The translations under genes and the position numbers were made by a program. This document shows, in pieces, positions 10,958-12,750 of a stretch of 64,000 bases of DNA. The first letter of the stretch is position 1; the number at the start of each line of letters is the position of its first letter. Location of the stretch: the NCBI RefSeq assembly GCF_044324875.1, contig NZ_CP172185.1; one strand, 5' to 3'. Below the pieces are notes generated by a model. The model searched no databases. It was not told the origin of the DNA and saw only the letters and a program-made list of their open reading frames with translations. The DNA comes from Escherichia coli. GTDB taxonomy: Bacteria > Pseudomonadota > Gammaproteobacteria > Enterobacterales > Enterobacteriaceae.

Positions 10958-12682
10958 TCAGACCTCCTGAGCCTGCAGCGGGTTAGCGAAATCAAAATAG
11001 ATCACCGAAGGGTCAACGATGGTGTTCTCGTTATGATCGTTCAGATAACAGAAAAAGTTACCTTTTACGTTCCAGTACGGACTTTCCAGAACATAGTTGA
11101 GACAGGTTTTATGAGTCACCTGGTCACGCACTTCAGCCAGCAATGTTCGTACACGAGCCATCAGATTCGCTTCGCTGTCCAGCCCGGCAGCACCCAGCGC
11201 AGCAGTTACGGCAAAAGTGGAGTTAACCAGCAGGTAATAAGGGAAATAGCGCAGCAACTGCTCACGGGTGAAAATATTTTCCGCCTGCGCCTCGTCAATG
11301 GTATCGAGCCACTCTGTCGCGTGAGGCATAAACGCGCTGCCCTGGCAGTCACGGTAAATAAATCCGACCGGCAGATCCCCAAGCATCTGCACAAGAATAT
11401 TTTGCTGATGCGCCAGCAGCACCAGGCCGTAATCCGCTTCAGCCGTAAACAGAGGCTTCAGCACCTGCTGACAGTAAGCATCGACCCATGCGTGGGCGGC
11501 CTGTTGCACAGTGATACCGAGGCGATCGCTCAGGCGTTTTACCGCCGAAACCAGCAGCGAATCACCGCCATCCGGTGCGGCCTGAGTCAGGGAAACCAGA
11601 ACGTTGGTCTGGCTTTGCGGCTGCTCCAGCAGCAGGTTTTCACGCAGGGAAAACAAACTTTCCTGCATGATGTTGCCGTTAAGATCGCGCAGCCCGGCCC
11701 AGCCGTCCTCCTGCATTACCCGGAAAGTAGGGAAGCGGGCCTGTAGCATCTGCCAGCCGTCGGTTTGCGCCAGACGTGCCAGGCGCATTCCTCGCTCCAC
11801 CTCTTTCACAGACAGAGTACGGACGGAGTTGGTCAGCCGAACGCTCAGGGAGAACTTGATCATATCGCGGCTGGTAGCACAGTAGAGGGAGCGGGAAGAG
11901 GTGGTCGGCAGCCACGACGTGCCGGCCTCGCCTAAGTCTCTGATAAGTCCTTTAGCAAAAAGTGCCTGGCACCACACCTGCTGCAAAAGATATTCTCCCT
12001 GCCACGGGTGCAGCGGGAACAGCCATTGATTGTCACTTAATTCGTTGAGTAACTGGGGCGCATTTTCTGCGGCAAATCGCGTCAACCGCTGTTGAAGGTT
12101 AAGATGCAGACTTTCACCAGCGATTTGCGTTTTATCCACCGAAAACCACCGCAGCGGGAAGTGAGGTGCCATGTCAGGCAGGTATCGTTCAGCTTCCTGG
12201 CGGTTAAACGGTTCATGAGACTTAGGTGCAGGGTGGAAAGCGTGTCCTGTCAGCAGTGCCTGCTCAGCCTCGCCAAAATTCAACGCTTTCTCACGCAGGA
12301 TGGCCCAGTCATGGCGGGCATCAATTGTCTGTTGCGTATGGGCGTAGCTTTCCAGCACGCGTTGGTGGAAAGTTTCGCAGAGGGGAACTGGCAGAAAAAG
12401 TTGATGCCGGAGCTTGTCAATAATAAGCCGGGAGAGAGTGGTAAAATCGACAGGATAACTGCCTGATGCCGTGACCAGATGAGCAGGAAATGCAAAGCGG
12501 TGATGCTGGGTTGGGGAGAAATAAGCCACTCTGAAATGGAGCGACTTCTGTTCGTCCAGCGGGATAATCAATTCGTCTGGCGGGTATTCCGCCAGTTGCC
12601 AGTCTTTGGTTTCACGAATCAAGGCATTCAGGAAGCACTGCGCAGCCACATCTGTGGCGGATTTTTCAGAGGGCAGGATCAT
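10958..12682 (-). CDS. iucA: IucA, aerobactin synthetase component (start refined to 574 aa)
   Basis: The 595-aa ORF begins inside the Fur operator; internal ATG at 12682 (MILPSEK) is preceded by GGAG and lies downstream of the promoter. Confidence 0.9.
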   Translation of the reverse strand: MILPSEKSATDVAAQCFLNALIRETKDWQLAEYPPDELIIPLDEQKSLHFRVAYFSPTQHHRFAFPAHLVTASGSYPVDFTTLSRLIIDKLRHQLFLPVPLCETFHQRVLESYAHTQQTIDARHDWAILREKALNFGEAEQALLTGHAFHPAPKSHEPFNRQEAERYLPDMAPHFPLRWFSVDKTQIAGESLHLNLQQRLTRFAAENAPQLLNELSDNQWLFPLHPWQGEYLLQQVWCQALFAKGLIRDLGEAGTSWLPTTSSRSLYCATSRDMIKFSLSVRLTNSVRTLSVKEVERGMRLARLAQTDGWQMLQARFPTFRVMQEDGWAGLRDLNGNIMQESLFSLRENLLLEQPQSQTNVLVSLTQAAPDGGDSLLVSAVKRLSDRLGITVQQAAHAWVDAYCQQVLKPLFTAEADYGLVLLAHQQNILVQMLGDLPVGFIYRDCQGSAFMPHATEWLDTIDEAQAENIFTREQLLRYFPYYLLVNSTFAVTAALGAAGLDSEANLMARVRTLLAEVRDQVTHKTCLNYVLESPYWNVKGNFFCYLNDHNENTIVDPSVIYFDFANPLQAQEV

Positions 12683-12699
12683 AATCAAACAGCTCCTAC

Positions 12700-12750
12700 A
12701 CAGTAAAATAATAACAATTATGTCAATAATGATTATCATTATCAATGAGA
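12700..12750. promoter_or_regulatory. Fur-binding sites (iron box) in the iucA/shiF divergent promoter
   Basis: Minus-strand reads GATAATGATAATCATTATTGACATAATTGTTATTATTTTAC, a near-perfect Fur box consensus. Confidence 0.85.

What the first reader, a model, noticed from the sequence alone, without database searches (positions are those of the whole stretch)
12661..12750. The first ATGs of the long iucA ORF lie inside the Fur operator
The 595-aa ORF starts MIMIIIIDIIVIIL..., which is simply the translated AT-rich Fur box. The real start is the MILPSEK Met at 12682 with a GGAG 7 nt upstream, giving 574 aa.
Basis: partly seen in the sequence, partly recalled or inferred. Interest (0 to 1): 0.3.

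Follow-up and report, generated by a model that had tools for sequence, protein, structure and literature searches.

The report
iucA ORF overruns its Fur-controlled promoter
The first 21 codons of the longest possible reading frame for the aerobactin gene iucA are its own iron-regulated promoter read as protein; the real gene starts at the later ATG, as reference databases already annotate, so this is an ordinary start-codon artefact.

Summary
The finding holds and it is ordinary. iucA lies on the minus strand. Its maximal ORF (12745..10958, 595 aa) opens 63 nt upstream of the accepted start.

What those 63 nt are:
- They are the aerobactin promoter and operator.
- The opening TTG is the first half of the -35 hexamer TTGATA.
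- The only upstream in-frame ATG (12739-12737) sits inside a 19-bp Fur box, GATAATGATAATCATTATT (12743-12725). It has 1 mismatch to consensus, against 0.01 matches expected by chance.

Why they are not coding:
- GC is 24%, against 54% in the gene.
- They use ATA three times and AGG once; the 574-codon gene never uses either codon.
- No Shine-Dalgarno precedes either upstream start.
- They lie upstream of the predicted transcription start.

Why ATG 12682 is the start:
- It follows AGGAG.
- It gives the 574-aa protein that RefSeq annotates.
- It aligns with the first native residue of crystallised K. pneumoniae IucA (5JM7).
- It sits exactly 10 codons before the conserved DVAAQCFLN motif in IucA from Pantoea, Serratia, Brenneria and other genera.
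- One Klebsiella allele has an in-frame TAA in the extension, and Serratia has a TGA.

- The ORF's first codon is TTG, not ATG.
- There is one upstream ATG, not several.
- The GGAG-to-ATG spacer is 10 nt, not 7.

GenBank still holds 593-aa and 595-aa versions.

The parts
10958..12682 (-). iucA coding sequence as it should be annotated (574 aa plus stop), starting at ATG 12682-12680 (MILPSEK...)
   Evidence: The same start and length are annotated in RefSeq records. 5JM7 aligns from this Met. Distant homologues start at the equivalent residue. Pfam PF04183 and PF06276 are recorded for the cluster.
12683..12745 (-). Spurious 21-codon in-frame extension (TTG...ATT) of the maximal ORF. It is really promoter, Fur operator and 5' leader.
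   Evidence: GC is 0.24, against 0.54 for the CDS, whose lowest 63-nt window is 0.37. It contains 3 ATA and 1 AGG, codons never used in the 574-codon CDS. Ile makes up 48%, against 3.3% in the CDS. The predicted peptide has GRAVY +2.89. Kp allele L006 has an in-frame TAA.
12725..12743 (-). Primary Fur box GATAATGATAATCATTATT (18 of 19 to consensus). It contains the only upstream in-frame ATG (12739-12737).
   Evidence: 1 mismatch, 0.01 expected; the unique strong site in the window. The same position (-61..-43) holds in E. fergusonii, Klebsiella, Pantoea and Dryocola.
12740..12745 (-). -35 hexamer TTGATA of the main promoter. Its first three bases are the 'start codon' of the 595-aa ORF.
   Evidence: Promoter scan: TTGATA, 17 nt, CATAAT, 10 of 12 matches, with TG upstream of the -10. 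A review states that both Fur sites overlap the -35 and -10 of P1 (PMC3788343).
12717..12722 (-). -10 hexamer CATAAT (also a Fur-type hexamer, 5 of 6 to GATAAT)
12707..12712 (-). Predicted transcription start region (about 7 nt after the -10) and the last Fur-type hexamer, ATTATT. The inferred leader is about 27 nt.
   Evidence: Inferred from the promoter geometry and the hexamer scan. Not measured here.
12693..12697 (-). Shine-Dalgarno AGGAG, 10 nt before ATG 12682
   Evidence: Anti-SD duplex is -6.5 kcal/mol here, against +0.6 and +0.7 for the 20 nt before ATG 12739 and TTG 12745.
12686..12688 (-). In-frame TTG two codons before the ATG: a conceivable but unlikely alternative start. It is part of the conserved TGTTTGAY motif.
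   Evidence: Present in all alleles of the 574-aa clade. Only 4 nt from AGGAG. Absent in Serratia and Brenneria, whose ATG is at the same residue position.
12818..14011 (+). Divergent MFS transporter gene (shiF-like), 135 bp from iucA. It shares the AT-rich control region.
   Evidence: Pfam MFS_1, E = 2e-19. Annotated as MFS transporter in RefSeq. The same divergent arrangement, with a 132-137 bp spacer, occurs in Pantoea, Serratia, Dryocola and Brenneria.
4711..10957 (-). Rest of the operon downstream of iucA: iucB 10010-10957, iucC 8268-10010, iucD 6994-8271, iutA 4711-6912
   Evidence: ORF list. Annotation of the 99.9%-identical record NZ_AP045764.1.

Best explanation
The 63 nt between 12745 and 12683 (minus strand) are the Fur-controlled aerobactin promoter and its short leader. 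They are not coding sequence.

Mechanism:
- RNA polymerase uses the -35 TTGATA (12745-12740) and the -10 CATAAT (12722-12717). It starts transcription near 12710.
- With iron, Fur-Fe2+ occupies an array of GATAAT-type hexamers running from 12743 to about 12707. This covers both promoter elements and blocks initiation.
- Without iron, the operon iucABCD-iutA is transcribed.
- Ribosomes bind at AGGAG (12697-12693) and start at ATG 12682, giving the 574-aa type A NIS synthetase IucA.

The reading frame of iucA happens to stay open through this AT-rich DNA, because the frame ATA-ATG-ATA-ATC-ATT-ATC of the Fur consensus contains no stop. A longest-ORF rule therefore picks TTG 12745 or ATG 12739 and yields artefactual 595-aa or 593-aa proteins with an Ile-rich N-terminus.

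Shown here:
- the sequence features;
- the composition break;
- the lack of an SD upstream;
- homologue N-termini;
- the RefSeq annotation;
- in-frame stops in other alleles.

Inferred, or taken from the literature on the near-identical ColV-K30 promoter:
- Fur occupancy;
- the exact transcription start.
For: - **Fur box:** unique in the window, 1 mismatch, 0.01 expected.
- **Promoter:** best promoter match TTGATA-17-CATAAT, with the ORF's TTG inside the -35.
- **Published operator:** a review states that the two Fur-binding sites of iucA lie within P1, overlapping -35 and -10 (PMC3788343). The footprint on ColV-K30 spans 103 bp (PMC2189734).
- **Composition and codons:** extension GC 0.24 equals intergenic GC 0.23, against CDS 0.54. 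ATA x3 and AGG x1 are never used in the CDS.
- **SD:** anti-SD pairing occurs only before ATG 12682.
- **Crystallised protein:** PDB 5JM7 IucA (576-residue chain) aligns residues 3-575 with residues 22-594 of the long ORF, E = 0. That recombinant enzyme has been characterised kinetically (PMC9356276).
- **Annotation:** RefSeq starts iucA at the equivalent of 12682 in E. coli, E. fergusonii and K. pneumoniae records.
- **Length in homologues:** 574 aa is the modal length (50 of 120 cluster representatives). Distant genera start 10 codons before DVAAQCFLN.
- **Stops in other alleles:** in-frame TAA in Kp plasmid NZ_CP089871.1; TGA four codons upstream of the ATG in Serratia. In Brenneria the Fur box sits at -65, in a different frame, and its ATG is lost.
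- **Yersinia:** the Fur box at -64 of Y. pseudotuberculosis iucA binds Fur in EMSA (PMC8319957).
Against: - The primary papers (Bindereif & Neilands 1985; de Lorenzo et al. 1987; Escolar et al. 2000) are not held.
- The frame stays open, with the TTG and ATG retained, in most alleles of the Escherichia/Klebsiella/Pantoea/Dryocola clade. Conservation of the promoter DNA explains this, but it does not by itself exclude rare use.
- The AGGAG-to-ATG spacer (10 nt) is at the long end of the usual range.
- A minor upstream promoter (P2) has been reported for ColV-K30. This is my recollection and is unverified here. It might transcribe the upstream codons.
Confidence: 0.95

Rival explanations
1. The long form is real. 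Translation starts at TTG 12745 or ATG 12739 and gives a 595-aa or 593-aa IucA with a hydrophobic, possibly membrane-anchoring, N-terminal extension.
For: The frame is open and both codons are retained in E. coli, E. fergusonii, Kp iuc1, Pantoea and Dryocola. Proteins of 593 and 595 aa are deposited in GenBank and UniRef, e.g. EFN8687324.1, ABD51743.1 from APEC O1, and a 595-aa Pectobacterium parmentieri entry.
Against: - Both codons lie in the -35 element and Fur box, upstream of the -10 of the only good promoter.
- There is no SD pairing: +0.6 and +0.7 kcal/mol.
- GC is 24%, and the extension uses codons the gene never uses.
- Kp L006 has an in-frame TAA and Serratia a TGA.
- Distant homologues lack any extension.
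- The 574-aa form is crystallised and active.
- The deposited long forms are gene-caller outputs, not experimental. RefSeq uses 574 aa.
Confidence: 0.015
2. Translation starts at the conserved TTG 12688, two codons before the ATG, giving 576 aa (fMet-Ile-Met-Ile-Leu-Pro...).
For: TTG is invariant within the conserved TGTTTGAY motif in all eight alleles of the 574-aa clade. It lies downstream of AGGAG and inside the predicted leader. The SD-to-ATG spacer is rather long at 10 nt.
Against: - The SD-to-TTG spacer is only 4 nt.
- TTG is a weak initiator and lies next to a strong ATG.
- Serratia and Brenneria have no such codon, yet place their ATG at exactly the same residue position, 10 codons before DVAAQCFLN.
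- PGAP and the crystallographers used the ATG.
Confidence: 0.03
3. The upstream ATG/TTG opens a regulatory upstream reading frame: a leader peptide fused in frame, translated from a minor upstream promoter to modulate iucA expression.
For: A minor promoter upstream of P1 has been reported for ColV-K30 (own recollection, not verified here). The DNA is more conserved than the first codons of the gene: Pantoea versus Dryocola shows 4 of 63 differences upstream against 22 of 63 downstream.
Against: - The conservation is what a 100-bp Fur operator plus promoter predicts.
- The differences show no third-position bias.
- There is no SD.
- The frame is broken in L006 and Serratia.
- An in-frame 'uORF' without its own stop would simply be the long isoform.
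Confidence: 0.005

Closest known systems
Aerobactin promoter-operator of plasmid pColV-K30 (iucA P1 with primary and secondary Fur sites; de Lorenzo et al. 1987; Escolar et al. 2000)
   Same: The -35, spacer, -10, leader and start are the same sequence as in the common E. coli plasmid allele, except for one base. I take that allele to be the ColV-K30 type; this was not checked against M10930. The Fur sites overlap -35 and -10, as described in PMC3788343.
   Different: The window has T instead of G at 12735 (GATAATGATAATC versus GATAATGAGAATC). This raises the match to the 19-bp consensus from 17 to 18. It also removes the GAATC HinfI site used in the classical protection assay (PMC7536154). 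The variant occurs in 49 of 1820 E. coli records, and nearly all of the 30 listed are chromosomes.
Aerobactin synthase IucA, type A NIS synthetase (RefSeq WP_000602863.1; PDB 5JM7/5JM8 from K. pneumoniae)
   Same: The 574-aa product from ATG 12682 is in the public collection as 'MULTISPECIES: aerobactin synthase IucA', and the two closest RefSeq records annotate WP_000602863.1 at this position. It aligns end to end with 5JM7 (E = 0).
   Different: Nothing at the level of the short product. The 21-residue N-terminal extension of the maximal ORF has no counterpart in the solved structure or in distant homologues.
Start-codon over-extension by longest-ORF gene calling
   Same: This is a textbook case: an AT-rich upstream regulatory region is free of in-frame stops, so ORF finders and some pipelines or 595 aa.
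   Different: Here the false start codon is itself half of the -35 hexamer, and the false second Met lies inside the repressor binding site. The error can therefore be diagnosed from sequence alone.

Membership tests
IucA (IucA/IucC-family type A NIS siderophore synthetase) | IucA_IucC (PF04183) and FhuF-like C-terminal (PF06276) domains, and full-length similarity to characterised IucA | tested here: met
   Precomputed Pfam PF04183 and PF06276 for the cluster. 5JM7 matches at E = 0 over residues 22-594 of the long ORF.
IucA (IucA/IucC-family type A NIS siderophore synthetase) | Operon context iucA-iucB-iucC-iucD-iutA | tested here: met
   ORFs at 10958-12682, 10010-10957, 8268-10010, 6994-8271 and 4711-6912, annotated as such in a 99.9%-identical RefSeq record.
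IucA (IucA/IucC-family type A NIS siderophore synthetase) | N-terminus 10 residues before the conserved DVAAQCFLN motif | tested here: met
   Met at 12682 satisfies this. The 595-aa ORF does not. It holds in Pantoea, Serratia, Brenneria, Scandinavium, Dryocola and Entomohabitans.
Fur operator (Fur box) | Match to the 19-bp consensus GATAATGATAATCATTATC, or an array of at least 3 GATAAT-type hexamers | tested here: met
   18 of 19 at 12743-12725, with 0.01 expected. Hexamers lie at 12743, 12737, 12730, 12722 and 12712.
Fur operator (Fur box) | Overlap with the -35/-10 of an iron-repressed promoter | tested here: met
   The box begins within the -35 TTGATA and the hexamer array covers the -10 CATAAT. 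This agrees with PMC3788343.
Fur operator (Fur box) | [quoted passage not shown] | not testable with these tools
   Published for the ColV-K30 allele, which I take to be the common plasmid allele differing by one base (PMC2189734, PMC3788343, PMC7536154), and for Y. pseudotuberculosis (PMC8319957). Fur ChIP in CFT073 covers iuc and shiF (PMC7157518).
Genuine N-terminal extension (long IucA isoform) | Start codon lies within the transcript and is preceded by a ribosome-binding site | tested here: not met
   TTG 12745 and ATG 12739 lie in the -35 and spacer of the promoter. Anti-SD duplexes are +0.7 and +0.6 kcal/mol. The TSS itself is predicted, not measured.
Genuine N-terminal extension (long IucA isoform) | Coding-type composition and conservation of the extension among homologues | tested here: not met
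   GC is 0.24. ATA and AGG codons are absent from the gene. Kp L006 has a TAA and Serratia a TGA. Distant homologues have no extension.

The most novel reading that the evidence does not exclude
The in-frame, stop-free state of the promoter and leader is retained from Escherichia to Pantoea. It could be maintained because a small fraction of transcripts, from a minor upstream promoter, yields an N-terminally extended, strongly hydrophobic (GRAVY +2.9) IucA isoform. Such an isoform might tether aerobactin assembly to the inner membrane near the exporter encoded by the divergent MFS gene.
Probability: 0.01. Interest if true: 0.45.

Novelty: already known. Interest (0 to 1): 0.05.

Why it matters
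This matters only as annotation hygiene.

- The aerobactin promoter is the founding example of a Fur operator, and the 574-aa start is the one used by RefSeq and by the structural work.
- Even so, 593-aa and 595-aa versions persist in GenBank, UniRef and metagenome gene calls. Examples are APEC O1, several E. coli entries, and Pectobacterium parmentieri.
- Anyone building IucA alignments, allele schemes or truncation calls expressed as a percentage of reference length should use the 574-aa start.
- The long forms carry a false hydrophobic N-terminus. It could be misread as a signal peptide or membrane anchor.

Tried and rejected
- **Primary papers.** I tried to read those with the mapped transcription start and footprints: de Lorenzo 1987 (PMC212138), Escolar 1999 (PMC103753), Escolar 2000 (JBC) and Bailey 2016 (PMC4928626). 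None is held. The TSS therefore rests on promoter geometry plus the statement of a review.
- **Klebsiella papers.** Two papers that mention iucA and 'transcription start' concern the rmpA promoter and were of no use.
- **Lam et al. 2018.** I recalled that this paper discusses iucA length differences between iuc lineages. The text holds nothing of the kind, so I do not cite it for that.
- **Codon-position test.** I compared substitutions in the extension with the first 20 codons. The N-terminus of IucA is itself poorly conserved, so the test has little power. I rely on composition, SD, stops and homologue N-termini instead.
- **Rfam.** The scan of the window found only two tRNAs and no RNA family in the iucA leader.

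Full report
**What is in the sequence**

The gene is on the minus strand. Read 5'->3' on that strand, 12770-12670 is:

...ctgacaataacatttctcaTTGATAATGATAATCATTATTGACATAATTGTTATTATTTTACTGTGTAGGAGCTGTTTGATTATGATCCTGCCC....

- The mechanical ORF list gives 10958..12745 (-), 595 aa, start codon TTG, beginning MIMIIIIDIIVIILLCRSCLIMILPSEK.
- The Met of MILPSEK is ATG 12682-12680. From there the product is 574 aa.
- The in-frame candidate starts upstream are TTG 12745, ATG 12739 and TTG 12688.
  - The ORF opens with TTG, not ATG.
  - There is one upstream ATG, not several.
  - AGGAG (12697-12693) is separated from the ATG by 10 nt (CTGTTTGATT), not 7.

**The upstream 63 nt are promoter and operator**

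- GATAATGATAATCATTATT (12743-12725) differs from the 19-bp Fur consensus at one position. It is the only such site in 64 kb, where shuffles give 0.01.
- A hexamer scan shows a contiguous array of GATAAT-type units at 12743, 12737, 12730, 12722 and 12712.
- The best sigma-70 match in the region is TTGATA (12745-12740), 17 nt, CATAAT (12722-12717). It scores 10 of 12, with TG upstream of the -10.
- The 'start codon' of the 595-aa ORF is thus the first half of the -35 hexamer. The only upstream ATG lies between -35 and -10.
- With this geometry the transcript should begin near 12710, downstream of both codons, leaving a leader of about 27 nt. This is an inference; I could not obtain the S1-mapping paper.
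- It also agrees with the 103-bp footprint listed by Chen et al. 2007 for ColV-K30 (PMC2189734).
- In Y. pseudotuberculosis a near-identical box at -64 of iucA binds Fur in EMSA (PMC8319957).
- In K. pneumoniae CG43 the stretch from -67 to -43 was also reported as an apo-IscR site (PMC4169559).

**The extension does not look like coding sequence**

| Measure | 63-nt extension | 574-codon gene |
|---|---|---|
| GC | 0.24 (whole intergenic spacer 0.23) | 0.54 (lowest 63-nt window 0.37) |
| ATA codons | 3 | 0 |
| AGG codons | 1 | 0 |
| Ile content | 48% | 3.3% |
| GRAVY | +2.89 | -0.19 |

- The 20 nt before TTG 12745 and ATG 12739 pair with the anti-SD at +0.7 and +0.6 kcal/mol.
- AGGAG before ATG 12682 gives -6.5 kcal/mol.

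**Is the open frame more than chance?**

No. 13% of shuffles of these 63 nt lack an in-frame stop. The frame used (ATA ATG ATA ATC ATT ATC) is one of two stop-free frames of the Fur consensus.

**Comparison with characterised and annotated IucA**

- PDB 5JM7/5JM8 (K. pneumoniae IucA, 576-residue chain) aligns chain residues 3-575 with residues 22-594 of the long ORF. Chain residue 3 is the Met that aligns with Met22.
- That recombinant protein has been characterised kinetically (cited in PMC9356276).
- RefSeq/PGAP places the iucA start at the position equivalent to 12682 in all records inspected, each giving 574 aa:
  - an E. coli chromosome 100% identical over the 601-bp query window;
  - an E. 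coli plasmid and a 93.5%-identical chromosome;
  - an E. fergusonii plasmid and two K. pneumoniae plasmids;
  - the best overall match to the window.
- None of the 30 listed records that match the 81-nt promoter segment exactly has any feature annotated over it.

**Comparison across alleles and genera**

- An alignment of six alleles shows no indel between the Fur box and the ATG. The frame stays open in five of them.
- K. pneumoniae plasmid NZ_CP089871.1 carries an in-frame TAA 13 codons before the ATG.
- Among 120 cluster representatives of homologues, 574 aa is the modal length (50). The 593-aa and 595-aa entries are the same extension called by other pipelines.
- Every diverged lineage places its Met exactly 10 codons before the invariant DVAAQCFLN motif, as MILPSEKSAT-DVAAQ does:
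  - Pantoea: MIQSTHNGSW
  - Serratia: MTIQFETATT
  - Brenneria: MNMRILSQAN
  - Scandinavium: MRSPSRHAGT
  - Entomohabitans: MNLSGKTLDQ
  - Dryocola: MNLSTKTQAP
- Upstream DNA fetched for four of them varies in whether the frame is open:
  - Pantoea and Dryocola keep the Fur box at -61..-43 and the open frame.
  - Serratia has an in-frame TGA four codons before its ATG.
  - Brenneria has the box at -65, in another frame, with its ATG lost.
- This also argues against the conserved TTG 12688, which is only 4 nt after AGGAG, as the start.

**How it works**

- This is the classical Fur switch. Fur-Fe2+ bound to the hexamer array covers the -35 and -10 of the promoter and prevents initiation.
- Under iron starvation the operon iucABCD-iutA (12682 down to 4711) is transcribed and IucA is translated from ATG 12682.
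- The 595-aa ORF is a by-product of a stop-free frame through the operator.
- Confidence is 0.95.
- Rivals are the long isoform (0.015), a TTG 12688 start (0.03) and a regulatory upstream frame (0.005).

**State of public annotation**

An exact-sequence look-up finds all three versions in public databases:

| Length | Occurrence | Examples |
|---|---|---|
| 574 aa | at least 1000 contigs (the tool's counting cap) | RefSeq 'MULTISPECIES' |
| 595 aa | 20 contigs | EFN8687324.1; UniRef A0A2K3TKF2 |
| 593 aa (the window's own sequence) | 4 contigs | OUK47375.1 |
| 593 aa (common MRIII allele) | 45 contigs | ABD51743.1 of APEC O1 |

**Context**

- The window is a chromosomal island: 99.9% identical to NZ_AP045764.1 over 15 kb, and NZ_CP033635.1 matches the 601-bp promoter query at 100%.
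- Its gene order is:
  - sitCD and IS remnants;
  - iutA-iucDCBA and the divergent MFS gene;
  - more IS elements;
  - a YadA-like adhesin and a collagen-repeat protein;
  - a lambdoid prophage carrying tRNA-Arg(tct) and tRNA-Met.

**Verdict**

The case is already known and of low interest, beyond a reminder to use the 574-aa start.

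Noticed in passing
window 12735 (minus-strand T; Fur box 12743-12725): The window differs from the common E. 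coli plasmid allele by one base inside the Fur box (GATAATGATAATC versus GATAATGAGAATC). This improves the consensus match from 17 to 18 of 19. It also destroys the GAATC HinfI site of the classical Fur protection assay. The exact 81-nt promoter occurs in 49 of 1820 E. coli records, and nearly all of the 30 listed are chromosomes. Whether it tightens repression is untested.
   Followed up: partly
window 6994-8271 (-), iucD: The iucD ORF is 425 aa and stops 81 nt before iutA. RefSeq flags the same allele as 'frameshifted' (a 1334-nt feature) both in the chromosomal island and on a common plasmid. From memory, unverified, the ColV-K30 IucD is the 425-aa form. If so, the flag may reflect comparison with a longer chromosomal-type reference rather than a dead gene.
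   Followed up: partly
window 12683-12817 and 12818-14011 (+); loci L009-L012 positions 464-600: A divergent MFS transporter gene (shiF-like) sits 132-137 bp from iucA in E. coli, Klebsiella, Pantoea, Serratia, Dryocola and Brenneria. The two genes therefore probably share the Fur operator. A plus-strand promoter-like site (ATAACA, 17 nt, TATCAT, 12711-12739) lies back to back with P1 inside the Fur box. shiF is listed among Fur ChIP targets in CFT073 (PMC7157518).
   Followed up: partly
window 12683-12691 and equivalents in L004-L006, L009, L011: The motif TGTTTGAY(T/A), immediately 5' of the ATG, is invariant across the whole 574-aa clade. The SD itself drifts (AGGAG, GGGAG, GTGAGA, TGGAAA) and stays 10-12 nt from the ATG. 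Between Pantoea and Dryocola the 63 nt upstream differ at 4 positions, against 22 in the first 63 coding nt. The reason for the conserved motif is unexplained. It could be operator extension, a translation-initiation element or an sRNA site.
   Followed up: no
P0052 (Pectobacterium parmentieri, 595 aa), P0047 and P0071 (593 aa), P0022 (640 aa): The same promoter-derived N-terminal extension (MIMRNVIGRIRIIKTCGICLI..., MRNIIGKIRIIITRGIYLI...) is annotated in other genera. One 595-aa entry is named aerobactin synthase IucA by NCBI for Pectobacterium. So the over-extension is not confined to E. coli.
   Followed up: partly
window 10784-11746 (+): A 320-aa TTG-initiated ORF runs antisense inside iucA and the end of iucB. 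It is very probably a shadow ORF of the GC-rich coding strand.
   Followed up: no
window about 14400-25500 and 26000-57000: Downstream of the MFS gene lie IS fragments (ISL3, IS256, IS66/ISCro1), a YadA-like trimeric autotransporter (18373-19968) and a collagen-triple-helix-repeat protein (21284-22780). Next comes a lambdoid prophage with tail tip J, tape measure, capsid E, portal and terminase, plus tandem tRNA-Arg(tct) and tRNA-Met(cat) at 52978-53131. The aerobactin/sit island therefore abuts a prophage on the chromosome.
   Followed up: partly
K. pneumoniae iucA promoter, -67 to -43 (equivalent to window about 12749-12725): The stretch that the long ORF 'translates' has been reported as a type 2 IscR box bound by apo-IscR in K. 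pneumoniae CG43 (PMC4169559). It may therefore be a shared Fur/IscR target. This was not examined for the E. coli allele.
   Followed up: no
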